Program-made: the position numbers and the translations under genes
From: a virus
Lineage: Duplodnaviria; Heunggongvirae; Uroviricota; Caudoviricetes
DNA length: 64,000 bases
Reading direction: 5' to 3' (one strand)
IMG/VR virus record: IMGVR_UViG_3300013902_000267
Shown here: positions 10,271 through 63,897 of the stretch, piece after piece
How positions within the stretch are numbered: the first letter of the stretch is position 1
Layout: the number at the start of each line of letters is the position of its first letter
The notes under the pieces: generated by a model
The model's database searches: none
Told to the model about the DNA's origin: nothing
What the model saw: only the letters and a program-made list of their open reading frames with translations

Positions 10271-10863
10271 TGCCAACAATGATGCCATTAATGGATAAAG
10301 ATACCGTAAGATATATAACATAGAATATTACACCAGAAGAAACTAAATATGTAGCTGATATAAAATCTACTATTGATGATACAAAGTGTGAACCAGAGAA
10401 ATGTGATGATGTTATATATCTTACTAAGATTATCGCTTTTTATACTAAATTTACAAATCTTGCAAATACAACACCTAATAATCAATATAAGATGCATATT
10501 CAAGATTTTATGTGGAGATTACAGCAATATAAGGAAGATATATTTGAAGTTGTTCAATCTATCATAGGAGTTTTAAATGGTTCCGATATTACAAAGATTG
10601 AATTACCTATAAGTGATAATCCATTAGAGATTATAAATGAATTAAAACAATGTGTACAAAATTGGTTTACACTTCATACAGATGATATTGAATATGAAGG
10701 CGCTAGATCATTAACTAGTTCATTCCTTTCTGTAATTCATAAGTTTGTTTACCTTTTTAGATTAGATAAATGCTCGACTGCTGATTATGGTCAGGATTAG
10801 AAATTACCAAATCCTGATGCAGGATTATGTGGAGTAAACGGAGCATATGCAGTAAATTTTTAA
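10271..10863 (+). CDS. hypothetical protein with in-frame TAG codons; needs a -1 shift at a T-run (10438-10441) for continuity
   Basis: Frame from ATG 10271 reads MPTMMPLMDKDTVRYITQNIT... up to the T5 run. The -1 frame continues ...YTKFTNLANTTPNNQYKMHIQDF... through TAG 10798 to TAA 10861-10863. Confidence 0.35.
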
Positions 10864-10874
10864 TATGATATAAT

Positions 10875-11828
10875 ATGAATCCTATAAATCAACCATCATC
10901 TAGAAATTACAATATCAATGGTAGTACAAGAAATAATGGGTTCTTATATAAAATTATGCCTTTATCATTTAATTTACAATAGAGAGGAAATGATTTTAAA
11001 GTTAAAAAATACAATAAGTGTAAATTTAATATCGGCGATAATGTAAGAGGATTGTGTTTGGAAGATAAGAAAGAACATTCAGGACGAATTACTAATATCT
11101 TATACAGTACAAATACAGAAGTTCCTTATTTAGTTTATATCATTGATAATAAGACAAGATAGAAATTATCATTAAACTTTAGTTCGCTAGAATTTAATAA
11201 TTCTAAAATTGATGAGTCATATGGGTTTGATGTTGCCATTAAACTATATGAAACATTAAATAAAGATAAATATAATAAATTAAAACTTTAGAATAGAATG
11301 GTAAATTCAATAAAAGTTTTACTTGAAGAATATTTTAATAATACAGAACAAATGGATATGTTGTTAAATGATTATTAGAAACAACAGAAAAAAGCAAGTA
11401 AAGCATATGATTCACGTCAAGAGTTTTTAAAATCAATATTAGGTAAAGTAACATATAACAAATATCAAAATAAAGGTATGTTTGCTCCTATTCCTTTATC
11501 TGCATTGCATTTAACATTCGAAGATTTTTATTATTTGTTTCCAGAGAATAATATTAAGATGAGACCAATGGATAATGAAGCAGGTGTAGAGAAAGTAAAG
11601 AAACTTATTGCACGTATTAATAAGGAATATCCTAATAACGGTATTAGATTGTTAGATAATGGTGTTTCTTATACATTAAGTTCAAATCTTGTATTTAAGA
11701 GATTAGATAATATAATTGATTTTTTATAGATAATTCAGAAAAATGTTTTGAGGATTTCATCTGATAAAACAAATCCAACAGTTAATTGGAAGGCGATGAT
11801 AAAGAAATTCAGAAATTATCTACGATAA
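10875..11828 (+). CDS. hypothetical protein (317 aa), 5 in-frame TAG
   Basis: Single frame from ATG 10875 to TAA 11826-11828 with no TAA or TGA. It joins ORF-track fragment 11478..11729 to its upstream and downstream pieces. Confidence 0.55.
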
Positions 11829-11861
11829 TCAAATAAGTAAAATAAATTAATTAAAATAATA

Positions 11862-12365
11862 ATGATGATAACTACAAACATAAGTAACATTCCAGACGCA
11901 TGGGATGGTTATTTTGAACAATAGGTTAATAAGTTCACGCCTTCTGTTGAAGTTCCTAAGCCTTGGAGACATCCGGTTGGACCTGAACCTATGATGAAAC
12001 CTTGCAAGCATCATAAGACATAGTTTATTATAAAACATAAACCTGCTACATTACCAAATGGACCAGAACATGGATGTAACGTATGTGATCCATATCATCC
12101 AAATTTGTATGATCATATGAATATGCCTTGTTTTAATCAACATAAACCATATGGTATCGCTACTAATAGATTAATGAGTCCATTTGAAGATGATGATAGA
12201 CCTGATTGGCATGAATTCCATGCTAAGAATCGTAAACCTATGATGTTTGAAGAAGTTATAGATGAAAATGGTTGTTCACATGGTCCTCATGGAACAATTA
12301 ATGTTAGACCAGTTGAACCTGCTGATGATGAAGCAGATGAGATTGAAGATGAAGTAACAGTTTAA
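11862..12365 (+). CDS. Cys/His/Pro-rich small protein (167 aa), 2 in-frame TAG
   Basis: Continuous frame containing ORF 12105..12365. Acidic C-terminal tail. Motifs HGCNVCDPYHPN and CSHGPHG. Confidence 0.5.
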
Positions 12366-12461
12366 AATGAAAATTAATTAATGATAGAAATATAAATTAT
12401 GCAAACATCAAGTAAAGTTTCATACGATAATTGGAGTGATTGGAATTTAGGAAATTAGATA

Positions 12462-13166
12462 ATGAATATAAGACCTGTTGGTACATATTGCTTCTGTGAA
12501 CATCATCATTGTCACCATCATCATCCTTGTGATTGTGTAGATTGTGAATTCTCAGAATCATATATTAAACCAGAATCTTGTTGTCATCATCATCCGCATC
12601 CACCAGTACCATGTCCACCACATCATTGTGATTGTCATGATCCACATTTATTTCCAATTGATCAAGATAATGATGGATTTGTAGAAAGTGATATGATTCA
12701 TAAACATCCAGAACCATATATTCCAGAACCATTACCAGGAGAAATTGGAGATAAAGAAGATGATACAACAAATAGAATGGAAGTAGGTGACGAAGTTGAT
12801 GATATTGATGATTCAACAAATTATTATGGTTCAAATTTAGTTGTAAGTATTCCTAAAGAAATTCAACCAGTAGAAACATCAGATGAAATTGATTCTATTT
12901 TAGATGAAGATACACAAGATGATATGGTAACTACTGATGAAGATGGTTATCATACATTAAGTGATGAAGTTCCAGCAGAAGAAGATAATTGGGAAACATC
13001 AAAAATGATTGATACTAATACATCTAAAATTATTGAAGAAACACCAGTTCCTGAATAGGAATTAAAGGAAGTTGAAACTATTCCATCTGTAGAATCAGTA
13101 GAAGAGAAACCCACACGTGGACGTAGAAGAGTTAATCGTGGAGGAAGACGTAAAAAAGAAGAATAA
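12462..13166 (+). CDS. His/Cys-rich acidic protein (234 aa), reads through TAG 13056
   Basis: CHHHHPCDCVDC...CCHHHPHPPVPCPPHHCDCHDPH metal-binding-like clusters. The frame continues past TAG to TAA 13164-13166 and adds a basic RGRRRVNRGGRRKKEE tail. Confidence 0.55.
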
Positions 13167-13182
13167 TTTTTATTCTATATAT

Positions 13183-13225
13183 AATAGAAAAGAGACTTAG
13201 AACAAAAATACTAAGTCTCTTTTTA
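13183..13225. terminator. bidirectional terminator hairpin between convergent genes
   Basis: AGAGACTTAG-aacaaaaatac-TAAGTCTCT flanked by A/T runs on both sides. Confidence 0.5.
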
Positions 13226-13262
13226 TTTTTTATAAACATTCACATTTAATTTTACTATAAAA

Positions 13263-14389: not shown

Positions 14390-15286
14390 ATGGCAACATG
14401 GAATCAAGCAGTTCAATAGATGGGTAAGTTTTATCAATAGAATATACATACATATCAAGGAGGTAAATCAGGACATGCGACAGGTGCTAGACGTTCTTAT
14501 TCATGTCCTTTAGTTGGACACAGTGTAGGAGATGATTGTTCAGGATTTACTTCTGCGTGTTTATAGTTATTTGGAGCATTTCCAGGCTCATATATTGTTT
14601 CATCTAGTGGTTTTGCATCAACATCTGGTGCAACAGCCGCATATTTAAGAAAAGCTGGATTTTCACCGTTAAGATATATTAGTTACTCATCTTTATAGCC
14701 ATATGATATTGTTGCAAGAAATGGACATGTTGAAGTATTTTGTGGTATGAAGGGAAGTTCACCAATGTCATACGCATGGGGAAATATTCATGATGGCATA
14801 AATGGACATGTTGGTATGCCATGTTGGTTTTCTAAACAGTCTTATTCTATTGTATGGAGAAATTCTGGTGTAAGTATAGATACACCATTAGATTTTTCTT
14901 CAGTGTCTGGCGGTTCATTACAACAATAGATGAATTCTGGATATGGTACAGGTGGAACATTAAATGGGTAGACAGGTTCATAGTTTAATTATACATCAAA
15001 TACATATCCTGTTCATGATGAATATGAAACTATTTCATCTGGTAATGGTTCAAAATCTGTATTTGAAATTGTAGGTGAAAATACATTACGTATGGCATAT
15101 ACAAATTCATCATATATACAACAATTAGATTCATCTAATTATTAGTTAAAAAATACTCGTATATATTCAACTAATGATGCATCTATAATATTAGATGAAT
15201 TATCAATACCATTAGATCCATTTGATACGAGTGTTAATACATTAGATTCAAGTGTTATTGATAATTCAGTTAAAACAAATAATTAA
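14390..15286 (+). CDS. NlpC/P60-family cell-wall peptidase (298 aa), about 9 in-frame TAG
   Basis: Continuous frame from ATG 14390 to TAA 15284-15286. It carries the catalytic Cys motif GDDCSGFTS (DCSGF) and the His motif NGHVEVF. Its C-terminal module is shared with the next gene. Confidence 0.6.
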
Positions 15287-15292
15287 TAATAT

Positions 15293-16333
15293 ATGGCTGG
15301 CAAGAAATTACTTAATGGTGTTTATATAACAAAGAAAATAATGGAAGCTTTTAATCTTAAAGATTATCAGGCTGCTGGATTTGCTGGTTGTTTTATGGAA
15401 GAATCTGGTTGTGATCCCGGTGCATATAATGCCGCTGAAAAATCTGGAAGATTTAAAGGTTCATCAGCGAACGGTGCAGGTTATGGTGCAGGTCTTGCAT
15501 AGTGGTCTAATGCATGGAAACGGTAGATATAGAGATAGTTTAATAATTCAAGGCCTATAGAAAATTGGACATTAGATTAGCAAATAGCTATTGTTACTAA
15601 AGGCTGTTCATAGTCTTTTGTAAATTTATTAAGAAAATGTACATCAGTAGGTTAGTCTACAGATATTGTTTTAAGAGGATATGAAAATGGTTCTGCAGGT
15701 AAAGGTACTAAATTACGTTCATAGCAATCAATGAAAGCATATACGTGGTGTAAGACATCATATATGGCAGATGGTAGTAGACGTACGTTTAGTGATGGAT
15801 ATATTGGTGCATTAACATGTAGAACATCATGGGCTAATGCAGTTTTAAGTAAAATGGGATCAGTTAATCTTGCAGATTTATCCGGATTAGGAACAGAAGT
15901 AGGTGGAGGATTAGGTGATGATGGCTCTTTTGGTTCTACTGGTGGAGGAGGAACTGGAGATTCAAACGCATATCCTGTTCATGATGAATATGAAACATTT
16001 ACTGGACAAGGTGGAAATATATTTGCAAATGCAAAAGATAATGCATTTCAATTAGCTGCTGATGCATCAAAATCTAAATTTTCATCTAAAGATTCTGAAG
16101 CATCTAAGCATACACGTATATATTCTACAAATGATTCTTGTATTGTTTTAGATGAATTAAGTATACCATATGATCCAAATGATCCAACTATTGAATATGC
16201 AAATCAAAATGTAAAAGCGGAAGATGTTAAGAAAGATACATCTACTAATGCAAAAGATAATACTAAAGACACATCTACAAATAAAAGTACAAATAAATCT
16301 AATACTACAAAAAAGACAACTAAATCTAAATAA
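15293..16333 (+). CDS. lysozyme-like (phage tail lysozyme-type) protein (346 aa), multiple in-frame TAG
   Basis: N-terminus AGFAGCFMEESGCDPGAYNAAEKSGRF...GYGAGLAQWS resembles the phage tail-lysozyme GNxxxESxxxP block. ORFs 15293..15502 and 15731..16333 are in the same frame and are joined only through TAG codons. Thr/Lys-rich tail. Confidence 0.5.
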
Positions 16334-16335
16334 TT

Positions 16336-19300
16336 ATGATTACAATAAATGGTATTAAATATTTAAAAAAAGGAGAGACATCAAATGATAAAACAATAAC
16401 GCATTATTATTATACAGATTCATTAAAGAAAACTTATAACATAATATATAATGGCAAAAATGCTAAATTATATACAGATACTAAAGTATACAAGGATTCT
16501 GATACAAATTAGATTATAAAGAAAGATTTCTTTAATTATACTATTGATTACGGAACAGGAAAATATGGAGGTGTTTGTTATTCAAAATCAGATGAAGATA
16601 AGATATTAGGTATGGTCGATTCTGATAGTAATATAGATGGAAGTTCTAATGGAGATTCTACAACTGATGGTGATAATAGTTCAAACTCTGGAAATAATTC
16701 TGATGATTCTGATAATAATGACGGTAATAGTTCAAATAATGGTAATGGAACAGGTGATGATACAAATGATTCTGATAGTAATGGATCTGGTAATAAAGAT
16801 ACTAATAATAAAGGTATATTTGAGGATTCAATGGGTAATAAAGATAAAGATAATCCTCGAAGTTCATTACCATTAGGAGCAGATATTAAAGATCCTGATG
16901 TTACAGGTTTTAGCATTGATGAAGTAACAGCGCCACATCCACGAGAAAACAATTGGTATAATAAAGGTTCTGTTTGTCCAATAATACGTATAAATGATCA
17001 TTATTTTTCTGATACTGAAATATAGCATTTTTCTATGGAAACTGGATATTATAAGAATTTTTATGATTATCAAGTATACCAAGCACCGTTAACAGGTGTT
17101 TTACCAACTATGAGGCTTATTGTTACAACAACAGATCCAGGTTTATTAAAGAAAGATTTTATAAAGCAAGGTGATAGATGTAATGTATTTTTCTAGAGTA
17201 ATCATTCTATGATTAAATCTATGAGATGTGATTTCAGAATTACTAATGTTGTAACAGATTAGTTAGATTAGACGTAGTATTAGAAATATCAAACATAGAT
17301 TATAACAGGTGAACTTTATGTCCCGGATTTAAGAAATGAAGAAACTCGTTATAATTTTAATGGTTCATCAAGAGATGCTATGATGGATTTGGCAAAGAGA
17401 TTAAGATTAAGTTTTTTCTTTTGTGATCCTGATGATACTAATGATAAAATGGTTTGGTGTAATTGTAAAACACCTGAAATGTTCATTCATGATTTAACAA
17501 CGCATGCATGGAAAAATTCTATATCATTCTTTGAATCTTGGATTGATCCACGTTATGGATTATCTTTTATGAATATTAATAGATTATTAGGTGAAGATGG
17601 ATTTGATGAATCAATAGATATGACATTCTGGACTAATACATTTATTAATAATAGATCAGTTGATGGAAAATCTGCAAATGAAACAGATACAGAATAGAAA
17701 AATAGTACACATATTCAAACAAAATGTTTTACTAATATTATTAATGATAATGAATCTGCTACAGTATATCATGTTAATAGTTGGAGATTGGTTAATAATG
17801 CATAGGAAATACAAGATTTTGTTGGATTGAATTGTAAAATGCAATATTCATCTGTTAATCCTGGATTATTATCAGATGAGAATAATAATCCAAATTATAG
17901 TGTAGAATTTTCATTATGTTTAAATAGAACTAAATTTGATCCAACTAAAAAGGATAATGATTTTTATGTATTATTAGGACCTGGTAGAAATATGACATAT
18001 GCGAGTGGCGATGCCGCCATGGGAACATCTGAAACACAATCTTCAAATAAAAATGAACCTGAACAAGTTACAAATCAAATGTCTGATGGTGATGCAGATG
18101 CAATGGATAGTACAGGAAATAATATGATGTCTTCTGGTAATACACATCAATTTTATGAAGTTGCTTATGAACATAATATGAGAAATTTACTATAGTTATA
18201 GAAATAGTATTTACTTGTAGAATTAAATGGTGCAAACTTAAGTATTGTTCGCGGTGAAAAAATGCCTATTGTATTAATGGATTTAAATAAAGCAGAACAA
18301 GCTATTAGAACTAGTCAAGCACGTACAAAAATAGAAGAATGTATGTATGAAGCTGAATCCGGTTGGTATATAATTGATGGTATTGAATGGGTTTTTGATC
18401 CTGATAATGATTAGGGACAAGGTACAAACTGGCGAACTAATGTGAAATTAGTTAGAAGAGAATGGCCAATACCATCAAAAATAAAAGATGCAAATGGTAA
18501 TACTGTTTCAAAAAATGTCGCAAATAGTATTGTTTTGGTAGATATTGGAAACGGACAATAGATAAGAATGGCTTATTATGATGCAGTAAAGAAATATAGT
18601 TAGGAAATAAAAAATGGTGATGTCAAAATATTAGGTGGAACAACATCTGAAGACGCAGTTGTAATTGGTCAGAAAAAACAAAACATATCTTCAACTAATG
18701 ATGAATAGAATTCAGATGATCTAGAAGAAAGTGGTAAATTATATACTGCAAATGGTGTAGAGACTGTAAGTGCAGTTAATTTTAATCTTGATTTAATGGA
18801 TCAATATGTAAAAGATTCTGATTATGTTGGTTAGTCTACAATACCTTTAACTGGTTTGAAAGATTTTATGAAAAATATTTATAAAACAATATTATCTGAA
18901 TCCGATAATAAATGTAAATTGGTATCTGGAAGACGGTGGGCAGTAGATGAATATGGTAATAAGGTAAATGGAAATGCGTTTGTAAAGAAATATGATTATT
19001 ATAAATGTATGAATGCTATAGGTGAAGTAATGTATTTTAAAAAAAATAATTCAAGTCATTTATATGGTGAAGCTATTGATATTATTAATAATGGTATAGA
19101 TTTTACTGAACTTATGACTAATGTAATAATGAAATCACCTGCGATATTAAAATTATTTTATGATAATGGTGTTTCTGCTTATATAGAGCAAGCAAAGGAT
19201 GATACAGGCGCAACTACTAAACATTACCATATTGGAACTGATACAATAAAACAACGAGAATTTTGGGAATCTGTTAAAGCTATATTAGGTTCTGATATGA

Positions 19301-19425
19301 TTCCAGGAACTATGATAACATTTATGAACTATATGACAAAAAATACATAGAGAACAACAGAATTCTCTGTAAGTAGTGAAATAGACGAAAACACATTACA
19401 AAAAAATAGTAATAATGATAAATGA
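16336..19425 (+). CDS. large tail-associated protein (about 1029 aa) with C-terminal M15 (VanY/L-Ala-D-Glu) peptidase; roughly 25 in-frame TAG
   Basis: ORF fragments 16612.., 17380.., 17827.. and 18856.. are all in the frame of ATG 16336. There is no TAA or TGA until TGA 19423-19425. The protein has a Ser/Asp/Asn/Gly low-complexity region. The C-terminus carries SSHLYGEAIDI (H-x6-D) and KHYHIG (H-x-H), the M15 zinc motifs. Confidence 0.6.
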
Positions 19426-22612: not shown

Positions 22613-22912
22613 ATATATTAAATTATGTTTTATTATTTATCACCGGAACATGACAAAAATAACATAACCCAATTATATTAATAAACGCTTAATTATTTCT
22701 AATCAAGTCTCTATGTTACCATAGAGTTCGGACTATTGCATAGTTTTGTTTCACAACAAAACTCCTTTTTATTTAGTCTCTCAGGCTGCCCATAACATTG
22801 TTGTTATTGCTTGCCCCTCGTTATCCTTACTACCGGTACCTAAGGTAATAAAATGTAAGGAACTTCGAGTCAATTAAAAAAGGTTTTACATGGACATTGT
22901 TATTGTTGTCTA

Positions 22913-23395
22913 TCCATCTTCAGAATCCCAATTATAATTCTTTATTGCCAAACTTTCAGCTGGTATACATTCAGTATTGAACGTTAACTTATGACCGTTA
23001 AATGTACCTGCAGCTTCTTGATTCTTTTGCTTTATATATCCAAATATTGTTTGACAAAGTTTTTCATAATGAGGATTTACATTACAAGTAATTCCTAAGA
23101 ATTCTGCCATTTGATTAAGACCATTCAAACCAATTGTTAAATATTGCTTATTCAAATTAATAAACCCTGCTTTATATACAGGTAATAATCCTGCGTCATA
23201 CATATCCCAAAGAAGTTCATTATATGCTGTATGATATTTATATACTCTATCAAGAATATTACCAAAATATTCGCACATATCATCATAATGCTCTTCTACA
23301 TTTTCTTTTGTTACTCCAGATTTCTTAACACTGTTAAACCAGTCTTGAGTTATGCGACTAAGATTCAGGGTTATCACACTTTTACTTCCTGTTTG
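22913..23395 (-). CDS. nrdD: nrdD exon 4 (approximate)
   Basis: ...RKRQTGSKSVITLNLSRITQDW...LNKQYLTIGLNGLNQMAEFLGI...FNTECIPAESLAIKNYNWDSEDG. The exon ORF stops at a TAG beside the intron. The ORF-track start is GTG, not a true initiator. Confidence 0.5.
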
Positions 23396-24600
23396 ACGTT
23401 TTCTCCATATATTTCTATATGGTCCGGGTCATATCTTATGTTTATTTAAATAATAAACATTGCACTATTTCGGCATTTAAAACGATTCGTTTCCTAAAAC
23501 GTTACTACGTATCAATAGTAGTCCTACTCCACCTGCTCATCACTTAGGGGATGACCTCCACACACATTAATAATTTTTATATGTTCTACCTATTAACATA
23601 TTCCTAAAATTATTCATTAAATAATTTTTATATTTACCGATTTTTAATTCTTCAATAGATTTGCCATTATTATATTGTTCTCTTAAATAAACAACTTCAT
23701 CTTTAGATAACAATGGTAACTTCTATTTACATTTATCAGTTCTAATAGGCATTTTTACATGCATATATGATTTTCCAAATAATATTTTATTAAATCCACT
23801 CCATGAATATAAATTACTATATTCTTTAAAAATATCATCTTCTTTTTCACCATTTACAAAATATCTTATTCTTATGTTTAATACTTCTTCATCAGATAAA
23901 TTCTTAGAATTTGCATGCATATTTCCTCTACGTGTTCTTCGATCTGATTTATAAAAATCATTTACTTTATCTGTATTATATTCTATACCAATTTCAGGTC
24001 TTGTATAATAATGCCAATATTTTGAAAATCCACTTTTTGACATTCTATCTTTATACATTTCATATACTTCTCCAAAAGTATATTTCATAGAATAACGTAT
24101 TTTTCTTAATTCTAATAATTCATTATCATTTAATATTGCTTTGGGATGCTCCTCCCCAACTTTTATTATAGTTGCAGAATGTCCACCCAATGTAGAATTA
24201 TATCCATTATTATAACTATCATATAATTTAATGTAATATATTTCTTTATTATCAGCTTCATCCTAATTAGGAACATTATCTTCTAATATTGAAAAATTTG
24301 ATTCATTAATATTATATTTTCTCATTGCTCTATATAATTTATAATCACTATGTTTCATATCATTTAAATGTTCTCTTACTCTTATATGATAATGATGTGT
24401 CTACCCAATATATACTTTTCCATTAGGAAATGATATTTTATAAATTGTAAATATTTTATTCATATATTATAAATGTAAAATTATAACATATTTATATTAA
24501 CTTGGCTCGGTATTACCATGCATATAGTTTCACAACTTATGTTTAGGCTTCACCGATGCATTAATATCGCTATATTAATACATTGCTTGATTAGCAATTA
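23396..24600 (-). mobile_element. group I intron 3 in nrdD, carrying a GIY-YIG endonuclease ORF
   Basis: R-like GGAGTAGGACTAC and S-like AAGATATGACCCGG on the minus strand near 23425-23530, 3' of the ORF. Confidence 0.5.
23723..24463 (-). CDS. GIY-YIG homing endonuclease (246 aa), 2 in-frame TAG
   Basis: N-terminal IYKISFPNGKVYIG(Q)T...RVREH GIY-YIG motif, with a TAG inside the YIGxT block. C-terminal GEEHPKAILNDNELLELRKIRY DNA-binding module. ORF 23723..24190 is only its C-terminal part. Confidence 0.65.
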
Positions 24601-26214: not shown

Positions 26215-26452
26215 TGATTATCGTACGAAGACGTTCCTTATTAAACCATATCATGAAGTCTTTCTGTAACCATGAAACACTTTCCCAACATGGTCTTGTT
26301 CCTTCTTCATCAGGAAATACAAATTCACCAAACATACCTTCAAAGAACGGTTTATCAAAATAAGAGAAATTTACAACATTTTTTCTTCTACATAAATCGT
26401 TACTTTATGTACGTTACTATTTGTAACTGCTCTATGATTTCCATAGACGATT
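26215..26452 (-). CDS. nrdD: nrdD exon 2 (approximate)
   Basis: Open frame ...NVVNFSYFDKPFFEGMFGEFVFPDEEGTRPCWESVSWLQKDFMIWFNKERLRTIITFPV between two intron cores. Confidence 0.4.
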
Positions 26453-43555: not shown

Positions 43556-43657
43556 ACTAGATTTAATTTTATTTTCCTATGTCATTCTTTAGTTCGAGTC
43601 TCCACTACTCACGTATCACCAGATTATTTTTTAATAGGAAAATAATCAAACCTATTA

Positions 43658-43930: not shown

Positions 43931-43933
43931 AAT

Positions 43934-44425: not shown

Positions 44426-44491
44426 ATAATGTTTGATATTTTTTCTTTTACTATAATTATATGATAAAAATAGCAAATTGTTTATAATATT

Positions 44492-50134: not shown

Positions 50135-51073
50135 TTAAATTCTTGAAAAATTTTTAATAATTGAATTTATACGTTTTGTATGTTTTAATTGTTGTTGTGT
50201 AGTTGGCCATTTAGTATATCCTCTGCTAAACCATGTATGAACAGCAATTAAATTTGTATCATAAAATTCATTTTTAATATCATTGCTATATATCGCTGAT
50301 GTTAATCCCGATAAATCAAATGTACAATTATTTTTTACAAAATCTGAATCATATAAATCTGTACCAAACAAATAATATATAGGTGTATCAGATAAAATTA
50401 CTAATGCTTGCTACAATATATAATATGGTTCAAAATTAGGTTCTTCTTCATCTTTATAACTATATGGAATTTGATGGGGTTCAATTTTATTATCAGGATC
50501 ATCTCTTACTGTTTTACAATAAGGTGTCTCATGATTTGGTAAATCAACTCTTGTTTCTCGAAATATCTTTGCATTAGAAATCATTTTCATTGATTCTCCA
50601 TTCATATACTTATATAAATCTTTATCTTTATTGTTTATTAATTTATTGATAAATTCTTTATATAAAGTATTAGGATTTTTCTCAAATTCGTTTGATATAT
50701 ATGTAATTATATTATTAAAAGAAATATTTTTATCTCTTAATAATTTAATATTCCAAAAACTTAAAAAAGTATTAATCATAAAACGACTATGATTCCTATG
50801 ACAAAATACCCCACCATCTTGAGGACCTGCTATACAACAACCACTTTGTACAAAATTCTTAAATTCTTTTATTAAAGATTCAAAATCATTAATAAAACAA
50901 TCCTCATCTATATAAATTACATAATCAAAATTTTTATTAGATAACATATAACTAAACATTAATAAAAATGCATCTAACCCATAAAATGGCTTGTTATCTT
51001 TTATACCTGGAATAACCCAAAAATTTTGAATAGGTATATATTCTATATATGTCTTTAATGACGGTATTAACAA
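50135..51073 (-). CDS. hypothetical protein, possible glycosyltransferase-like (312 aa), TAG read-through
   Basis: ORF 50411..51073 ends in TAG (50411-50413) and continues in frame into ORF 50135..50371. YIDEDCF DxD-like motif only. Confidence 0.4.
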
Positions 51074-51209
51074 TGAACTAGGTAAACATATTGAATTTGT
51101 TACAAAGCATACTTTATTCTATGATAACCATGTTTTAATCTCTACTATATTATCCATTTAAATAAAATTAAATTATTGTATATATTTTACTTTAAATTAA
51201 TAATAAAGT

Positions 51210-51518
51210 TTACAATGTTGATATATTAAAGCCACAATAACTCAATAAAATTACTATACGGATAAAATCTTGCATTTTAACATTTTCAAAATCTTTAACT
51301 TGCTCAAGATGTATCTTTAATAATTTTATATCTAATGGTTTATTTTCCTTATATAGTTTATATACATAATCATAACATATTTCAAAAAGTTCTTTTTCAC
51401 TTTTAGGCATATCACCATTAAGAATAGTATTCTTCATTTCTAAAGAATAATGGTCAAAGTCCATTTTCTCAAGGGACTTTGACCATTCATTAAAATCTTG
51501 TTTATTTGTTGTGTTCAT
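51210..51518 (-). CDS. hypothetical protein (102 aa)
   Basis: Uninterrupted ORF. Confidence 0.45.
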   Translation of the reverse strand: MNTTNKQDFNEWSKSLEKMDFDHYSLEMKNTILNGDMPKSEKELFEICYDYVYKLYKENKPLDIKLLKIHLEQVKDFENVKMQDFIRIVILLSYCGFNISTL

Positions 51519-52227
51519 AATACTTTCTATACTCTTTGTATAATTTATCTATAATCAATTGGTTATCTAAATTTTCAATATGAATTTCATTTACCATTGC
51601 ACATAATTTCCATAATTCATATTGATTAATACCAGATTTTTCATAATCATGATACCATGTAGTTTCAGGAAACATCCATCCATCATCCTCGCCAATACCA
51701 AATATATGAATATCATTATGTAATTTATCTATAATTAATGATACACCACCATATGATTGACAATGACTATTATATGTAAAATGGTAAAGTCTTATAGAAG
51801 CTTCATCATAAAACCCTTTATCATAACAACCAAATGAATCCATCATATTACCTAAATAACACGGATCATAATCATATTCATATTTAACTTCTGCTAAATC
51901 ATTATACCAACGTGGTTGTCGATTTTTAATAACACCTATTTGAATAAGTTTATCTTCAATATCCTTATTATAAGGCCAATATTGCCATAAACAATTGCAT
52001 CCATAATGAGTTAATTCAGCAAATTTATATATATCATTCTGAATACATTCAAAGAATGGTGCATATTGCGTTTTATCTATATTATTTTCTTCAAAATATT
52101 TAAGATCATAACCACAACAACTACCATCTGCATCGGCAAGTAAATCTTCTTTCTGTTTATCAGATAATTCAGTTTTATTAAATATATATGGTAACCATTC
52201 AGAGCCTTTATTATAATCTAGAATCAT
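51502..52227 (-). CDS. hypothetical protein (241 aa)
   Basis: Uninterrupted ORF, Cys/Tyr/Trp-rich. Confidence 0.45.
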   Translation of the reverse strand: MILDYNKGSEWLPYIFNKTELSDKQKEDLLADADGSCCGYDLKYFEENNIDKTQYAPFFECIQNDIYKFAELTHYGCNCLWQYWPYNKDIEDKLIQIGVIKNRQPRWYNDLAEVKYEYDYDPCYLGNMMDSFGCYDKGFYDEASIRLYHFTYNSHCQSYGGVSLIIDKLHNDIHIFGIGEDDGWMFPETTWYHDYEKSGINQYELWKLCAMVNEIHIENLDNQLIIDKLYKEYRKYYEHNK

Positions 52228-52478
52228 ATGGTACCTCCTTTCTTTATTAATATAGGTTTATAATAATCCTGAAAAAATTCAGGACATGCTAAAGGATTAA
52301 ATTCATTAGCTTTACGTAAATCTATATTTTCCCTTACATTTTTACAAAAAGGTTTAAGTACAGAAATTATATCATCTTCAAATATCTTTTCGCCTGTATT
52401 AATATCAACTAAACCAGTCCATGCAACATCTGATCTTTCAGATACCCATTGATTATTTTTATTTAGCCATGTTCTCAT
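52224..52478 (-). CDS. hypothetical protein (84 aa)
   Basis: Uninterrupted ORF. Confidence 0.45.
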   Translation of the reverse strand: MRTWLNKNNQWVSERSDVAWTGLVDINTGEKIFEDDIISVLKPFCKNVRENIDLRKANEFNPLACPEFFQDYYKPILIKKGGTI

Positions 52479-52600
52479 TGTATAATTATCTTTTAGTTTT
52501 ACATTTAATTATACAAGATATTGAATAGAACAATAAATATATATATTCTATCCAATATCAGGCAGCCAGTTTCATTTATAGTTTGAAACAAACTTTTTAT

Positions 52601-52738
52601 TTATCGTACATCACCAGTAAAAATTGCCCATATAAACTGAAGTACCATTCCGATAACTCCAAATACTACAGGAATAATTACACATGCAAGTGCAAATACA
52701 GCAATCGCTATGATGATACCAAGTAAAAACATTATCAT
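52601..52738 (-). CDS. small hydrophobic membrane peptide (45 aa), absent from the ORF track
   Basis: MIMFLLGIIIAIAVFALACVIIPVVFGVIGMVLQFIWAIFTGDVR*, preceded by a degenerate promoter motif. Confidence 0.35.
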   Translation of the reverse strand: MIMFLLGIIIAIAVFALACVIIPVVFGVIGMVLQFIWAIFTGDVR

Positions 52739-52777
52739 AATCTTTATATTTAAATTGTTAATATTTATGTTTATTAT

Positions 52778-52800
52778 TTACATTACAAAGATACATAATA
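52778..52800 (-). promoter_or_regulatory. degenerate copy of the conserved promoter motif
   Basis: ATTATGTATCTTTGTAATGTAAA on the minus strand, about 40 nt upstream of start 52738. Confidence 0.3.
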
Positions 52801-52834
52801 TTTTCCTAAATAAAAAATATATTACCTAAAATTA

Positions 52835-53368
52835 TTAAGAATTTAAATAATTATGAAATGAACCATCATCAGAATCTCCAATAAGATTGTTCAATACATG
52901 CCAATACTCAAGATAACGCTTTGCTTTCTCCATATCCTGTGTTTCTTTCTCCTTATGGTCAGATCTCCAAATATACTTAAATGAATTCAACTTACAGAAA
53001 TCCATTGTTGCTTGTTTTCCAAATGTCTGAAGCATAGCTTCTATACATTGTAAGCCATTACCACCAGCGCCATAATGATTTGGATGTTCAACAACATTCA
53101 AATTCTGTGTACTAAAAATAGGATTTAATTTTGTCTTATGTAATTGTAAATGTGCAGGTTCATCCTTAAATACAATCTTCTCATAATTCAACGGTTCTCT
53201 ATTCTATTCAGCTACATTATCACTAATAGGTTCACCACATTTCTCGTCATTATCTGTTGCAACTTCATCGGTTCTATTAGAAACAAATACAATATCTTTA
53301 TCATCCTTTGTACGTGTAGGTTCACCATATACAGGTTCCTATGTACGAGTTTCCTTATTATAACTCAT
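52835..53368 (-). CDS. DUF3310-family phage protein (177 aa), 2 in-frame TAG in N-terminal extension
   Basis: HPNHYGAGGNGLQCIEAM...KYIWRSDHKEKETQDMEKAKRYLEYW fits the DUF3310 pattern. The true start is ATG 53368 (MSYNKETRT(Q)EPVYGEP...VAE(Q)NREPLNYEK...). Confidence 0.5.
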
Positions 53369-53413
53369 ATTATATCAATTAGTTTTCATTTATAATTATA
53401 CAGTAAAAATAAA

Positions 53414-53884
53414 TCATTGTTTAATAGATTTTAACGAAATTAATGTAGTTCCAGATAAATCTATTAAATCTTTTTCTTTTGATGAAAAATCTAATATATG
53501 TTGTGTATGAGTTTCTTTAATTATACCATCGTTTTCCTATATAGGTTCAGGTTCAATTAAATAAGATAACTATTCATTATTATCTTTTTTATGTATCATA
53601 TATAATGTATTCTGTTCTAACGCATCTTCTATTGAAAGTTCTTTAGTTGAACCATCAGCAAAATATGTTACGCTTGGTATTGGTGCATCTAAATCATAAT
53701 ACGTCTAAATAATATCATATTTAGACGTATCTATATCATTTATACTTTTAATATTAGTTAAATCATCTTCATCATTATTTTCATCTACAATATCTGACGT
53801 AATATCATTAACTCCTGTAAATTTTACTAATAGACAAAGAATAACAAAAAAACCTATACTTATTGATATTACTGGATCTATCAT
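53414..53884 (-). CDS. N-terminally membrane-anchored acidic protein (156 aa), 3 in-frame TAG, absent from the ORF track
   Basis: MIDPVISISIGFFVILCLLVKF..., then an acidic region. Continuous frame from ATG 53884 to TGA 53414-53416. Confidence 0.45.
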
Positions 53885-58415: not shown

Positions 58416-58434
58416 AATTATATGTAATTTAAAA

Positions 58435-59009: not shown

Positions 59010-59020
59010 ATATATAATTT

Positions 59021-59043: not shown

Positions 59044-59147
59044 ATTTTATTTTAAATAAAAAAGAGATATAACAAAATAATCTGTTATACCTCTTATAAA
59101 ATATATCTTAAAATAATAAAAAATTACATAATATATTGTAAAAGCAT

Positions 59148-60137
59148 CTATGTTTCCTCATCAGCTTTTAATTTTGGATATGCAGCTCTAAGTATCTGTA
59201 ATACACGTGTTTCTGTCATTCCATGTTCTTCTGCAACTTGCCATGTATTCTTTTCACCACGTCCATTAATACCATAGCAATCACATACAATTTCACCATC
59301 TCTTTCACCAAGAACTCTCTTTACATTATCTTCAAGTTCTCTTTCAAGATCAGCGTTATTAAGATTACTATCAGGGTCTTTAAATGTCCTATTAGCTGTT
59401 ACATCACCTAATGTTGTTTTAGAATCATCATCATCCCCGTATGATTTATCCAAACTATTTGCACGTGTATTTGCTTCCATTGTTTGTGCAAATGTTTCAT
59501 ATTTCAAATCTGGATGTTTCTTTACGAGAACATTATAAATATCATCAATATCAGGTTCATAACCATTCTTATTATATAATTGATCCTTGATACGAGCGGC
59601 TTCACGAGCAATACTACCCATATTACGGGGAACTGCCATATGTCCACCTACCTCATCAACAGCAGTCATAATTTCTCTACGAATATACCAAATAGCATAA
59701 GAAACAAAACGTACATCTTTACCTGGCAAACTTGGATCATATGTATCTGCTGCTTGCATAAGTCCTATATTTCCATATTGAATCATATCTTCCTTTGGTA
59801 TATTAATATTTTTATACTTATTGACAACAGAAATAACAAATGGAAGATTTGCGGACACCAACTTATTCTTTGCCTTTTCAATTTCTCTCTTATTATCAGA
59901 ATGTTGAATAATATCAGCAAGTTTCACTTCATCTGCATGTGATAATTGTTTTTTCTTATTAATAGCATGTAAATATGCAATAGTAGACTTTGCTGTATTT
60001 TCATCCTGTGTAATAGCAAAATCATCATGCAAATCCATATGCATTCCATTATTAGCTTCATTGAGTTTCTTTCTAATAGTCTTAGAAACATTTCTCATGA
60101 TACTTTCATACAATGTCTTCTTTTCATTTAACTTCAT
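59148..60137 (-). CDS. sigma-70 family RNA polymerase sigma factor
   Basis: Region 2: LPFVISVVNKYKNI...QYGNIGLMQAADTYDP...RFVSYAIWYIRREI. Region 4 HTH: TWQVAEEHGMTETRVLQILRAA. Confidence 0.7.
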   Translation of the reverse strand: MKLNEKKTLYESIMRNVSKTIRKKLNEANNGMHMDLHDDFAITQDENTAKSTIAYLHAINKKKQLSHADEVKLADIIQHSDNKREIEKAKNKLVSANLPFVISVVNKYKNINIPKEDMIQYGNIGLMQAADTYDPSLPGKDVRFVSYAIWYIRREIMTAVDEVGGHMAVPRNMGSIAREAARIKDQLYNKNGYEPDIDDIYNVLVKKHPDLKYETFAQTMEANTRANSLDKSYGDDDDSKTTLGDVTANRTFKDPDSNLNNADLERELEDNVKRVLGERDGEIVCDCYGINGRGEKNTWQVAEEHGMTETRVLQILRAAYPKLKADEET

Positions 60138-61444: not shown

Positions 61445-61448
61445 TTTA

Positions 61449-61888: not shown

Positions 61889-61911
61889 TTATTAACAATA
61901 CAAAGATACAC
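61889..61911 (-). promoter_or_regulatory. conserved promoter motif
   Basis: Minus-strand GTGTATCTTTGTATTGTTAATAA. Confidence 0.45.
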
Positions 61912-62091
61912 ATTATTTTTGATATAAAAAAGAAAACATAAAGAAATATCAATTTTTATAGTAAAAACAATTAAAATTCTATAGAAATCTTATTAAATTT
62001 TATAATATTTTTTAAACAAGTATAGATAAGAAAAGTCTACCATGACTTACATCATAATAGACTTATAGTACATCTTTAAAAATAATATCTG

Positions 62092-62187
62092 TGGATATAG
62101 ATGGACTCGAACCACCATGTATCTGCCCTAGAATTATGATACAAACTAACATCATATTAGTCGCGTTTACCATTTCGCCATATATCC
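62092..62187 (-). tRNA. class II (long variable arm) tRNA, 95 nt, tentatively Ser(UGA)-like
   Basis: Acceptor GGATATA/TATATCC. D arm GCG(A)-AATGGTAA-(A)CGC. Anticodon stem ACTAA/TTAGT with loop TATGATG (anticodon TGA but A at position 33). Variable arm TGTATC-14 nt-GATACA. T arm GGTGG-TTCGAGT-CCATC. Alternative folds are possible. Confidence 0.5.
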
Positions 62188-62193
62188 ATATAG

Positions 62194-62266
62194 CAGGCCT
62201 GATGAGATTCGAACTCACAACAACATGATTAAAATTCGTGTGCTCTACCAATTGAGCTACAGGCCC
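62194..62266 (-). tRNA. tRNA-Lys (anticodon UUU)
   Basis: Acceptor GGGCCTG/CAGGCCT. D arm GCTC-AATTGGTA-GAGC. Anticodon stem CACGA/TCATG (one mismatch) with loop ATTTTAA. T arm GTGAG-TTCGAAT-CTCAT. Discriminator G. Confidence 0.7.
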
Positions 62267-62378
62267 AAAGTTCTATTTTAAATTTCCACGCAATAGAACT
62301 CCGAAGATTTGTAGATCTGTGTTCATGGTACTTAATCTAATGCTTGTTTTTAATACTGACGTGTTAACCTCTTCACCA

Positions 62379-62437
62379 AATCCCCGATTAAATAATATGT
62401 AATAGAGGGGATTCATGGGTTCGAACCATGGATAATC
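62379..62437 (+). other. tRNA-derived or tRNA-like structured element (T arm plus flanking 7-bp inverted repeat)
   Basis: AATCCCC-21 nt-GGGGATT immediately followed by a canonical T arm CATGG-GTTCGAA-CCATG and then GATAATC. No full cloverleaf on either strand. Confidence 0.3.
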
Positions 62438-62931
62438 AGTAAAATCATGATATATCACGAATGACACCATGACAATCTACGTTAACTGTAATACTAAAGC
62501 TCTTGACTCAATGCTAACGCTAAAATCTAGGATTCTGTTTATGCTAAATGTAATCAAGCTAATGCTTTAGTCAATTTACATATGTTATATATGATATTAT
62601 ATTCAAAGTCTATTATTCATATCAAAAATATTTTTAAGAAATAAATATCATAAATGAATCGATAACATTTATTATATAATATATGAATAAGAATTATAAC
62701 AAACTATATGAAGAAATGATGTCAGATATTTCAGTTATCGTTAAAAAGAAAATAAATGAAGCATATGACAATCAGCTTCTCGAAGAATATGGTGCAAAGG
62801 ATATGTTTAATGATATTATGAAAGAAGCATCAAAAGAAGGTAAAATCTTTTATAAGCATCTTAAATAGTTTATAATTTATATCATCAAAAAATTACAAGA
62901 GACAGATCAATATAAAAAAGCTGAAAAACTT

Positions 62932-63897
62932 ATGAATGCGTATGTTCAGAAAGTACAGAAATATATTGATGAACATAAGAAGATTACTCCGAGACGTATG
63001 TTGAAAATTACTGTTGCTGTATTGACAATGTATGGAGGTGTTTCAATGATACAAGATTGTAAATAGATGATTAAATCTTTATAGGGTAATGTTGAAACTT
63101 ATGAATAGAAAGTAGAAAATGTACCGGATGAAAAGCAACAAGAAGTAATAGTAGAAGAACCTGAAGATTTTGTTGTTGAAGTTAAAGATGAAGCAAAAGA
63201 AAAATTAAGTGTCAAGAAAGTATCTACTGAAGATATTAATAATACACCTGAAAAGAAATTTAAGGAAGACAAGAATTTCAATTTTAAGTCAAGCAACGAG
63301 GCTCGCGAATTTATTAAACATCATGAGTTATGCTTACTTTACCCTTATTACGCAAAACCCGAAGAGGAAGCAAAAGGAATGGTAACTATTGGTTATGGTC
63401 ATGTTGTATTGGAATCAGATGGTGAATTATACAAGAAAGTATAGCAATTAAAAAAGAAAGGCTTAATTAAACAATCATTTGTTACAAAAAATGGTAAAAC
63501 TATTTTAAACCCTAATCATTGTAAAACCATTATAACAAAGACTGACGCAGATAAATTATTTTAGAAAGATATTAAGATTGCTGAATAGCGTGCATATAGA
63601 ACTATACAAAATATGCCTACTGATGATGATAATGTTAAATATTATATGTTATATAATCAAAAAATAAGAGATGGTTTAACATCATTATGTTATAATGCTG
63701 GATAGCTTAAACATGAAAAATATACATTCATAACAAAAGGTCTTGCAAAATCTAGATATGATTATCAAGCATAGAAAATAAATGCAGGTGATTATAATGT
63801 ATCCTTTAAATATTTCAAGAATATTAAAGATAATCCTAACAGAAGAAATGAGGAATATAAGTTATTCTTTATGAACGCAAATAAGTCTATGTCATAA
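62932..63897 (+). CDS. GH24 (T4 e-type) lysozyme with N-terminal signal-anchor (SAR-endolysin-like), 321 aa, about 8 in-frame TAG
   Basis: EAREFIKHHELCLLYPYYAKPEEEAKGMVTIGYGH matches the T4L EGxxLxxYxDxxGxxTIGxGH block. ITKTDADKLF(Q)KDIKIAE matches T4L ITKDEAEKLFNQDV. N-terminal TM segment ITVAVLTMYGGVSMI. The frame is also open, through a TAG, back to ATG 62683, giving a possible 404-aa form. Confidence 0.65.

What the first reader, a model, noticed from the sequence alone, without database searches (positions are those of the whole stretch)
10271..63897. TAG is used as a sense codon across most of the window, so the ORF track under-calls genes
At least 25 genes are continuous reading frames only if TAG is read through, with conserved domains on both sides of the TAG. 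Examples: HNH CxxC as C-TAG-LCGC; GIY-YIG as YIG-TAG-T; T4-lysozyme block as KLF-TAG-KDI; a helicase N-domain joined to the Walker A part only via TAG; HtpG, nrdD, and a 1030-aa protein with about 25 TAGs. All of these end in TAA or TGA. The affected genes are on both strands and include replication genes, not only late genes. By analogy with TAG-recoded gut phages the amino acid is probably Gln. Several contexts place TAG where Gln or Asn is the family consensus.
Basis: partly seen in the sequence, partly recalled or inferred. Interest (0 to 1): 0.85.

Follow-up and report, generated by a model that had tools for sequence, protein, structure and literature searches.

The report
Known TAG-to-glutamine recoding in Lak megaphage
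The window is a piece of the published Prevotella megaphage Lak-B7, whose genes really do read the stop codon TAG as glutamine, but this was described for this very genome in 2019, so the finding is correct and not new.

Summary
The window is 100% identical to Prevotella phage Lak-B7 (MK250026.1, bases 139512-203511), a GenBank record with no annotation.

- **Coding density.** Reading TAG as sense raises density in 10271-63897 from 0.69 to 0.87. A TGA-sense control gives 0.72.
- **Frames.** Reading frames continue past TAG but not past TAA or TGA.
- **Domains.** Pfam and PHROG domain hits span the TAGs.
- **Selection.** Substitutions against Lak-C1 downstream of each gene's first TAG are biased to the third codon position (693:399:1640).
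- **Count.** About 25 ORFs carry 91 in-frame TAGs, and all of them end in TAA or TGA.

Three lines support glutamine:
- TAG exchanges with CAA/CAG in Lak-A2/C1 orthologues.
- Q dominates the most conserved TAG column in distant tail-lysozyme homologues (64 of 84).
- The genome encodes a tRNA(CUA) with a tRNA-Gln-like acceptor end and D-arm, plus release factor 2.

- TAG use is modular, not spread across most of the window. There are four TAG-free stretches of 4.5-6.4 kb (one 3.6 kb) inside the claimed range.
- The 1029-aa protein has 19 TAGs, not about 25.
- nrdD is broken mainly by a group I intron, homing endonuclease genes and an intein.

All of the main result was published by Devoto et al. 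2019, Crisci et al. 2021 and Borges et al. 2021. Verdict: already known, low interest.

The parts
1..10149 (+). TAG-free block of 14 ORFs, all ending in TAA. It includes RNA ligase-like, HisG-like, Ham1, cytidylyltransferase and SAICAR-synthetase-like genes. tRNA-Gln(CUG) lies at 33-104.
   Evidence: 0 TAG among 58 Gln-type codons, P=1.3e-8 if TAG were used at the genome average of 27%. Pfam. tRNA.
10270..13166 (+). Four ORFs with no family match (10270-10863, 10875-11828, 11862-12365, 12399-13166), carrying 2, 5, 2 and 2 in-frame TAGs. All end in TAA.
   Evidence: Third-position substitution bias downstream of the first TAG against Lak-C1. No Pfam or PHROG match among those tested; 12399-13166 was scanned against neither library, and 11862-12365 only against Pfam.
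14390..15286 (+). 298-aa ORF with 8 in-frame TAGs and no Pfam or PHROG match. It shares a C-terminal segment (YPVHDEYET...TRIYSTND...ILDELSIP) with the next gene.
15293..16333 (+). Phage tail lysozyme-like protein (PF18013) with 8 in-frame TAGs, all inside the single domain hit.
   Evidence: Pfam hit on residues 12-150 covers profile positions 6-137 of 140, E=2.6e-9. At the TAG column in 'GLA-TAG-WS', 64 of 84 distant homologues have Q.
16336..19425 (+). 1029-aa ORF with 19 in-frame TAGs, ending in TGA. Function unknown.
   Evidence: 997 codons align to Lak-C1 with differences of 124:76:265 by codon position downstream of the first TAG. No Pfam or PHROG match.
22886..28901 (-). Split nrdD (anaerobic ribonucleotide reductase) locus. 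Exon 1 is 28901-27783 (ATP-cone plus NRDD, TAGs at codons 16, 355 and 370). An HNH homing endonuclease gene (HEG) lies at 27726-26779 (4 TAGs) and a NUMOD4/HNH_3 HEG at 26083-25547 (0 TAG). The 3' half of a group I intron lies at 25546-25438. An exon plus intein ORF runs to 24598. A GIY-YIG HEG lies at 24463-23567 (3 TAGs). A further NRDD piece lies at 23278-22886.
   Evidence: Pfam. Intron similarity to Herelleviridae group I introns, 86% over 109 nt. PDB alignments to Thermotoga NrdD on both sides of the intron. The ATP-cone TAG aligns with Q in chain 8p23_A.
32780..34816 (-). HtpG/Hsp90 homologue, 678 aa, with one TAG at codon 11.
   Evidence: Pfam HSP90 and HATPase_c. PDB Hsp90-family alignments start at query residue 8-11, so the homology reaches the TAG.
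40811..41974 (-). LAGLIDADG homing endonuclease gene with 7 in-frame TAGs. It is absent from the syntenic position in Lak-A2 and Lak-C1.
   Evidence: Pfam LAGLIDADG_3 spans the TAG at codon 104. Synteny gap at 40887-42066. No paralogue in Lak-B7.
42044..46000 (-). RNA ligase-like gene 42044-43585 (TAG at codon 3, ambiguous), ORF 43934-44425 (2 TAGs), and DnaB-like replicative helicase 44492-46000 (TAGs at codons 22 and 104).
   Evidence: Pfam RNA_ligase and DnaB_C. PHROG 19 hit on residues 25-459 spans codon 104.
50135..53884 (-). Three TAG-containing ORFs: 50135-51157 (2 TAGs), 52835-53368 (DUF3310, 2 TAGs) and 53414-53884 (3 TAGs, ends in TGA). TAG-free ORFs lie between them.
59124..60137 (-). 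Sigma-70 family factor. Its single TAG lies 7 codons before the TAA, so whether it is a stop or a sense codon cannot be told from the sequence.
   Evidence: Pfam Sigma70_r2 and r3. TAG at codon 330 of 337.
62683..63897 (+). Lysozyme (T4-type glycoside hydrolase domain) with 9 in-frame TAGs, 5 of them inside the domain.
   Evidence: Pfam Phage_lysozyme on residues 225-366. T4 lysozyme alignment places 'KLF-TAG-KDI' against 'KLFNQDV'.

Best explanation
The window is part of the 550.7-kb genome of Prevotella megaphage Lak-B7, which uses genetic code 15. TAG is decoded as glutamine in a subset of gene modules, and only TAA and TGA terminate.

Shown here:
- TAG lies in frame inside conserved domains.
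- The frames past TAG are under purifying selection.
- TAG is interchangeable with CAA/CAG among Lak orthologues.
- TAG is not enriched at gene ends.
- The genome carries its own tRNA(CUA) and a bona fide prfB (RF2, which reads UAA and UGA but not UAG).

Inferred from published work and general knowledge of translation, not shown here:
- After infection of a standard-code Prevotella cell, the phage tRNA(CUA) is charged with Gln and outcompetes or replaces host RF1 at UAG, while phage RF2 keeps termination at UAA/UGA.
- TAG-free genes can therefore be translated immediately, and TAG-containing genes only once the suppressor is present. In this window the latter include a putative virion/tail-lysozyme block, lysozyme, helicase, NrdD and homing endonucleases.
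For: - **Identity.** 100% to MK250026.1 over window 10000-30000 and 40000-64000.
- **Coding density.** 0.69 to 0.87 in 10271-63897, with a TGA control of 0.72. Genome-wide 0.54 to 0.86, with a control of 0.56.
- **Frame continuation past TAG only**.
- **Domain hits spanning TAGs**.
- **Third-position bias downstream of the first TAG**.
- **Orthologue codons.** TAG aligns with TAG, CAA or CAG in 39 of 56 (A2) and 42 of 60 (C1) positions, with 0 TAA/TGA. CAA, two mutations away from TAG, is the commonest replacement.
- **Distant homologues.** Q is 19.5% at TAG columns against a 4.1% background, and 64 of 84 at the conserved AQW column.
- **tRNA(CUA)** at genome 414053-414125. Its U1-A72/G2-C71/G3-C70/A73 acceptor end is shared with both phage tRNA-Gln, and its D-arm is nearly identical to that of tRNA-Gln(UUG).
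- **RF2.** TIGR00020 scores 402 bits against a cut-off of 370. RF1 models score below their cut-offs, and the gene has 0 TAG.
- **Published for this genome set.** PMC6784885, PMC8346664, bioRxiv 10.1101/2021.08.26.457843.
Against: - There is no protein-level evidence for Lak phages. Proteomic proof of TAG=Gln exists only for crAss-like phages (bioRxiv 10.1101/2022.01.06.475225).
- tRNA identity is inferred. The same acceptor end also occurs in two predicted tRNA-Ile, and overall identity to tRNA-Glu (67%) is as high as to tRNA-Gln (64%).
- At several TAG columns, distant homologues prefer E, D, L or K rather than Q.
- The homologue set was retrieved with a code-15-translated relative (P0001), which gives a mild bias toward Q.
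- The temporal-switch part of the mechanism was not tested here.
Confidence: 0.95

Rival explanations
1. The TAGs are genuine stops. On this view the affected genes are pseudogenes or naturally split genes, or the TAGs are assembly or sequencing errors.
For: The GenBank record is a metagenome-assembled genome without annotation. Some genes here are truly split, but by introns and an intein (nrdD).
Against: Purifying selection on the frame downstream of TAGs. Single domain hits span up to 8 TAGs. TAG positions are conserved or swapped for CAA/CAG in independently assembled Lak-A2/C1, never for TAA/TGA. Nine Lak-B genomes are 99.3-100% identical here. 1363 in-frame TAGs genome-wide against 0 excess at gene ends.
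Confidence: 0.01
2. TAG is a sense codon but encodes something other than Gln, such as Glu, Lys, Tyr or pyrrolysine, or it is decoded ambiguously.
For: ARAGORN labels the CUA tRNA 'Pyl', from the anticodon only. E and D are also enriched at TAG columns, 1.7x and 3.1x. The HtpG TAG aligns with K in TRAP1. The tRNA(CUA) is 67% identical to the phage tRNA-Glu.
Against: Q is the most enriched residue (4.8x) and dominates the only strongly conserved TAG column. Within Lak, TAG exchanges with CAA/CAG far more than with GAA/GAG, AAA/AAG or TAT/TAC. The acceptor end matches the phage tRNA-Gln and not tRNA-Glu (G1-C72). Published alignments gave Q in 75-85% of terminase TAG columns (PMC8346664).
Confidence: 0.03
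3. TAG has a dual meaning. It terminates some genes, for example early genes read by host RF1, and is read through in others.
For: A few window ORFs have their only TAG within 0-7 codons of the TAA: sigma factor 59124-60137, 61446-61853 and 22886-23278. The model of early standard-code translation (Borges et al. preprint) would permit this.
Against: Genome-wide there is no excess of TAG in the last 20 codons of ORFs, 53 observed against about 86 expected. 301 of 505 genes simply avoid TAG altogether.
Confidence: 0.05
4. TAA is also partly recoded, because the genome carries a tRNA with anticodon UUA.
For: tRNA(UUA) at genome 345556-345628. Such a tRNA is reported as universal in Lak genomes (PMC8346664).
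Against: Frames stop after TAA, with a median of 6 open codons downstream, as expected for an AT-rich genome. 444 of 505 code-15 ORFs end in TAA. Crisci et al. also found no evidence for TAA recoding (PMC8346664).
Confidence: 0.03

Closest known systems
Lak megaphages of Prevotella (Devoto et al. 2019, Nat Microbiol, PMC6784885; Crisci et al. 2021, PMC8346664)
   Same: It is the same object: the window is Lak-B7 itself. Code 15, modular TAG use with large TAG-free regions, tRNA(CUA), tRNA(UUA), RF2 and low code-11 coding density are all reported there.
   Different: Nothing essential. The public GenBank record carries no gene annotation, which is why the ORF track looked broken.
TAG-recoded crAss-like and other gut phages (Ivanova et al. 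2014; Borges et al. 2021 preprint 10.1101/2021.08.26.457843; Peters et al. 2022 preprint 10.1101/2022.01.06.475225)
   Same: TAG is read as Gln. Suppressor tRNA is phage-encoded. Recoded codons are concentrated in structural and lysis modules. The hosts are standard-code Bacteroidota.
   Different: Those are different phage lineages with much smaller genomes. TAG=Gln was proven by proteomics there, not for Lak. In Lak the DNA replication genes are also mostly recoded, as noted by Borges et al. and seen here for the helicase and NrdD.
E. coli supE-type amber suppressor, tRNA-Gln with CUA anticodon (my own knowledge, not tested here)
   Same: A tRNA-Gln-like body with anticodon CUA inserts Gln at UAG in competition with RF1.
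   Different: supE is a weak mutational suppressor in a genome that still uses TAG as a stop. Here the phage has removed TAG from its terminators and brings its own RF2.
NCBI translation table 15 (TAG = Gln; my own knowledge)
   Same: Same codon reassignment.
   Different: The table was first defined for a eukaryotic nuclear code. In the phage the code is imposed transiently on a standard-code host cell.

Membership tests
Lak megaphage (Prevotella phage Lak-B7) | Nucleotide identity to a published Lak genome | tested here: met
   100% identity to MK250026.1 over window 10000-30000 and 40000-64000, at the expected offsets. 99.3-100% identity to eight other Lak-B genomes.
Code-15 (TAG to Gln) recoded phage | In-frame TAG inside conserved protein domains, with homology on both sides | tested here: met
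   The PF18013 hit spans 8 TAGs. Phage_lysozyme spans 5. GIY-YIG, HNH_2, ATP-cone, NRDD, LAGLIDADG_3 and PHROG 19 helicase hits also span TAGs.
Code-15 (TAG to Gln) recoded phage | Coding density is restored by TAG-sense gene calling and not by a control reassignment | tested here: met
   Window 10271-63897: 0.69 to 0.87, TGA-sense 0.72. Genome: 0.54 to 0.86, TGA-sense 0.56.
Code-15 (TAG to Gln) recoded phage | TAG is not used as a terminator; genes end in TAA or TGA | tested here: met
   There is no excess of TAG within 20 codons of ORF ends, 53 observed against about 86 expected. The test is indirect and cannot exclude a few individual cases such as the sigma factor gene. ORF ends were 444 TAA and 61 TGA, but that is by construction, because only TAA and TGA were used as stops.
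Code-15 (TAG to Gln) recoded phage | TAG aligns with Gln in homologues | tested here: met
   Lak-A2/C1 orthologues show CAA/CAG as the main replacements. In distant homologues Q is enriched 4.8x, and is 64 of 84 at the conserved column. The ATP-cone TAG aligns with Q in chain 8p23_A.
Code-15 (TAG to Gln) recoded phage | Phage-encoded suppressor tRNA with anticodon CUA | tested here: met
   None lies in the window. One lies in the same genome at 414053-414125, with a canonical cloverleaf and a tRNA-Gln-like acceptor end and D-arm.
Code-15 (TAG to Gln) recoded phage | Release factor 2 is encoded (an accessory feature reported for Lak) | tested here: met
   Genome 291031-292167, 378 aa. TIGR00020 prfB scores 402.4 bits against a cut-off of 370. 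GGQ is present, with SPY in place of SPF. The gene has 0 TAG.
Code-15 (TAG to Gln) recoded phage | Gln found at TAG positions in expressed protein | not testable with these tools
   This needs metaproteomics. It has been done for crAss-like phages only (10.1101/2022.01.06.475225).

The most novel reading that the evidence does not exclude
The selfish elements in this window may belong to a mobile-element pool that can only be expressed in a TAG-suppressing cell. They are the HNH and GIY-YIG homing endonucleases in nrdD and a LAGLIDADG endonuclease present in Lak-B but missing at the same site in Lak-A/C. They carry 3-7 in-frame TAGs each, and the LAGLIDADG gene has about 18 per 1000 codons, twice the genome mean. 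On this reading the alternative code acts as a barrier and filter for horizontal transfer of homing endonuclease genes. Meanwhile the intron RNA core itself (86% identical to introns of Staphylococcus, Bacillus and Enterococcus phages) moves across code boundaries. A related untested reading is that the code switch must occur before DNA replication, because the helicase and NrdD need TAG read-through.
Probability: 0.2. Interest if true: 0.4.

Novelty: already known. Interest (0 to 1): 0.1.

Why it matters
Stop-codon recoding in phages matters because it breaks standard gene callers and may time late-gene expression. For this genome it is textbook by now. Code 15, the tRNA(CUA), RF2 and the patchy TAG distribution were all reported in the paper that described Lak-B7. 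The practical lesson is that this window must be annotated with translation table 15. Even then, nrdD stays fragmented because of an intron, homing endonuclease genes and an intein.

Tried and rejected
1. **The search for homologous proteins on the tail-lysozyme domain.** It returned only Lak-clade relatives and code-11 fragments. Their Q residues at TAG columns may be code-15 translations of TAG, so I did not count them as independent evidence.
2. **The search of protein representatives.** I used the relative P0001 instead, which introduces a mild bias toward Q.
3. **A coordinate error of mine.** I first misread the short megablast hits to Staphylococcus, Bacillus and Enterococcus phages as lying in gene 15293-16333, because I forgot the 9999-base query offset. 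They lie at window 25438-25546, in a group I intron.
4. **Rfam.** It found no group I intron in the window at the gathering threshold, or at E up to 0.1 in 20000-30000. Presumably only the 3' half is recognisable next to large ORF inserts.
5. **PHROGs.** It gave no match for the TAG-rich block 10270-19425. Its 'structural/late' status therefore rests only on the PF18013 hit and on the literature.
6. **nrdD splice junctions.** I could not fix the exact junctions. No phase-compatible junction with a U at the 5' splice site and a terminal intron G was found by eye.
7. **ARAGORN with introns allowed.** It produced doubtful calls, such as tRNA-Leu with a 649-nt intron and tRNA-Asn with a 4-nt intron, which I did not use.
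8. **Homing endonuclease paralogues.** A blastp search within Lak-B7 found none.

Full report
**Identity of the window.** Megablast of window 10000-30000 and of 40000-64000 against the phage collection gives 100% identity to Prevotella phage Lak-B7. The accession is MK250026.1, a 550,702-bp circular metagenome-assembled genome from baboon faeces. The matches lie at 149511-169511 and 179511-203511, so the window is bases 139512-203511 of that record. Eight other Lak-B genomes are 99.3-100% identical, and Lak-A and Lak-C are about 80% identical. The record carries no annotation. The window has 27% G+C.

**Is TAG in frame more often than chance allows?**
- A mechanical caller (first ATG to TAA/TGA, at least 60 aa, greedy overlap removal) gives 83 ORFs. 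Of these, 25 contain at least one in-frame TAG (9 on +, 16 on -), for 91 TAGs in all.
- In the claimed range 10271-63897, coding density rises from 0.69 under code 11 to 0.87 with TAG as sense. The control reassignment, TGA as sense, gives 0.72. ORFs of at least 300 aa rise from 11 to 20.
- For the whole genome, rebuilt from the window plus ten fetched stretches, the figures are 0.54, 0.86 and 0.56. 204 of 505 ORFs carry 1363 in-frame TAGs.
- An assumption-free test agrees. For every open stretch of at least 80 codons, I measured the length of the next open stretch in the same frame. After TAG the median is 32 codons, after TAA 6 and after TGA 12 (window p=6e-4; genome p=8e-40).

**Are the frames past TAG really translated?**
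- Single Pfam domain hits run across the TAGs. PF18013 (phage tail lysozyme) covers profile positions 6-137 of 140 across all 8 TAGs of gene 15293-16333. Phage_lysozyme spans 5 TAGs of 62683-63897. GIY-YIG spans 2 TAGs, and HNH_2, ATP-cone, NRDD and LAGLIDADG_3 each span 1.
- The PHROG 19 DnaB-like helicase hit (residues 25-459) spans the TAG at codon 104.
- Hsp90-family PDB alignments begin at residues 8-11 of the HtpG homologue, so they reach its TAG at codon 11.
- Against the syntenic Lak-C1 sequence, nucleotide differences downstream of each gene's first TAG fall 693:399:1640 on codon positions 1, 2 and 3. The chi-square p is about 3e-201. The frame is therefore under purifying selection beyond the TAG.

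**Is TAG ever a stop?** Genome-wide, TAG is not enriched in the last 20 codons before the TAA or TGA, with 53 observed against about 86 expected under uniform use. A few window ORFs remain individually ambiguous. These are the sigma factor 59124-60137 (TAG 7 codons from the end), 61446-61853 (TAG as the last codon) and 42044-43585 (TAG at codon 3).

**Which amino acid?** Three independent lines point to Gln.
1. *Orthologue codons.* At in-frame TAG positions of Lak-B7, Lak-A2 has TAG 23, CAA 11, CAG 5 and other codons 17. Lak-C1 has TAG 25, CAA 12, CAG 5 and other codons 18. Neither has TAA or TGA. CAA needs two mutations from TAG yet is the commonest replacement. Conversely, 3.9% of CAA and 6.7% of CAG codons align with TAG, against 0.6% or less for AAG, GAG, TAT, TTG and TGG.
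2. *Distant homologues.* 85 homologues of the tail-lysozyme domain at 50% identity or less show Q at 64 of 84 sequences in the conserved 'GLA-TAG-WS' column. Pooled over the 8 TAG columns, Q is 19.5% against a 4.1% background, the strongest enrichment of any residue. The ATP-cone TAG of NrdD aligns with Q in PDB chain 8p23_A. The lysozyme TAG aligns with N68 of T4 lysozyme.
3. *Decoding machinery.* No tRNA(CUA) lies in the window. The genome has one at 414053-414125 with a canonical cloverleaf. It has U1-A72, G2-C71, G3-C70 and A73, as in both phage tRNA-Gln, and a D-arm almost identical to that of tRNA-Gln(UUG). This is consistent with Gln identity but is not proof. Two predicted tRNA-Ile share the acceptor end, and overall identity to tRNA-Glu is similar.

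A TAG-free prfB gene at 291031-292167 scores 402 bits on TIGR00020 (cut-off 370) and falls below the cut-offs of the RF1 models.

**Distribution.** TAG use is modular.
- 301 of 505 genes have no TAG, against 111 expected if TAG were used uniformly at its 27% share of Gln-type codons.
- In the window, 46 of the 91 TAGs lie in the + strand block 10270-19425, where TAG is 41% of Gln-type codons.
- The blocks 1-10270 (0 of 58), 28902-40810 (1 of 106), 46001-50134 (0 of 26) and 53885-59123 (0 of 20) avoid TAG.
- TAG-free genes are mostly metabolic or host-interaction types. They include an RNA ligase-like gene, HisG, Ham1, a cytidylyltransferase, SAICAR synthetase-like, Band_7, TelA, CNNM, Thg1, an S1-domain protein, NT5C and NAMPT/NAPRTase.
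- TAG-containing genes include the tail-lysozyme block, a T4-type lysozyme, the DnaB-like helicase, NrdD, HtpG and three homing endonucleases.
- 'Across most of the window' is therefore too strong, while 'not only late genes' is right.

**Corrections to the finding.**
- The 1029-aa ORF has 19 TAGs, not about 25.
- nrdD is fragmented mainly by mobile elements rather than by TAG. Exon 1 (28901-27783) is followed by an HNH endonuclease gene and a NUMOD4/HNH_3 endonuclease gene. Next comes the 3' half of a group I intron (25546-25438, - strand), which is 86% identical over 109 nt to introns that Rfam recognises in Herelleviridae phages. After that come an exon with an intein, a GIY-YIG endonuclease gene and further NRDD pieces.
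- The single 'in-frame' TAG of ORF 24598-25590 lies in that intron RNA, so it is not a codon.

**Comparison with what is known.**
- Devoto et al. 2019 (PMC6784885) described Lak-B7 among 15 curated Lak genomes. They reported low code-11 coding density, TAG repurposed to Gln (code 15), large TAG-free regions, high TAG use in regions encoding structural proteins, a CTA-anticodon tRNA and RF2.
- Crisci et al. 2021 (PMC8346664) added terminase alignments, with Q at 75-85% of TAG columns, and the universal tRNA(UUA) with no evidence of TAA recoding. My one search agrees on TAA.
- Borges et al. (bioRxiv 10.1101/2021.08.26.457843) proposed the temporal code-switch model. They noted that Lak DNA replication genes are mostly in the alternative code.
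- Proteomic proof of TAG=Gln exists for crAss-like phages only.

**Verdict.** Membership in the code-15 Lak clade is met on every feature that could be tested here. Novelty is nil for the main claim. Minor items not followed to the end are listed under things noticed in passing.

Noticed in passing
window 22886-28901 (- strand): nrdD is interrupted by mobile elements. These are an HNH homing endonuclease gene (HEG, 27726-26779), a NUMOD4/HNH_3 HEG (26083-25547), the 3' half of a group I intron (25546-25438), an intein (Intein_splicing hit in ORF 24598-25590) and a GIY-YIG HEG (24463-23567). Presence of the HEGs differs among Lak-A2, Lak-C1 and Lak-B7. Exact splice junctions were not resolved.
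   Followed up: partly
window 25438-25546 (- strand); L015 1511-1735, L016 1509-1761, L017 1509-1733: The intron's 3' core is 78-86% identical at the nucleotide level to group I introns of Staphylococcus, Bacillus and Enterococcus Herelleviridae phages. The first search also listed Vibrio, Alteromonas and Rhizobium phages, but where those match was not examined. This suggests horizontal spread of the intron across very different phage-host systems. Rfam itself does not call the window copy.
   Followed up: partly
window 40811-41974 (- strand): A LAGLIDADG homing endonuclease gene with 7 TAGs is absent from the syntenic site in Lak-A2/C1. Its C-terminal tail (ITNIEDEQSEN) repeats the C-terminus of the upstream RNA ligase-like gene 42044-43585. 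The flanks overlap by about 28 nt in the Lak-A2 alignment, which looks like an insertion that duplicated the target gene's 3' end.
   Followed up: partly
window 62092-62187 (- strand): A 96-nt tRNA-like sequence (Rfam tRNA, 45 bits) lies next to tRNA-Lys(UUU). It has a 25-nt variable arm and a non-canonical anticodon loop (UAUGAUG, nominal anticodon UGA, with A33 and U37). The variable-arm loop contains UUCUAGG. Its identity is unresolved.
   Followed up: partly
Lak-B7 genome 345556-345628 (L006 42045-42117): A tRNA with anticodon UUA, a nominal ochre suppressor, even though TAA behaves as the main terminator (444 of 505 ORF ends). This was already noted as unexplained by Crisci et al. 2021.
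   Followed up: partly
Lak-B7 genome 291031-292167 (L005 37520-38656): The phage RF2 has SPY where bacterial RF2 has the SPF stop-codon recognition tripeptide (SPF is from my own knowledge). It contains no TAG and, as assembled, shows no sign of the +1 frameshift site of bacterial prfB. ARAGORN also predicts a doubtful intron-containing tRNA just upstream.
   Followed up: no
window 14390-15286 and 15293-16333 (+ strand): Two adjacent TAG-rich genes share a conserved C-terminal module (YPVHDEYET...G..GN.F......TRIYSTND..I.LDELSIP) behind different N-terminal domains. This suggests a common virion-attachment or targeting module.
   Followed up: no
window 1-10149, 29039-40082 and 46126-56911: The TAG-free blocks hold an unusual set of auxiliary genes for a phage. 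They include HisG-like, SAICAR-synthetase-like, Ham1, NAMPT/NAPRTase, a Thg1-like tRNA-His guanylyltransferase, TelA, a CNNM/CBS transporter, Band_7 and two metallophosphoesterases.
   Followed up: no
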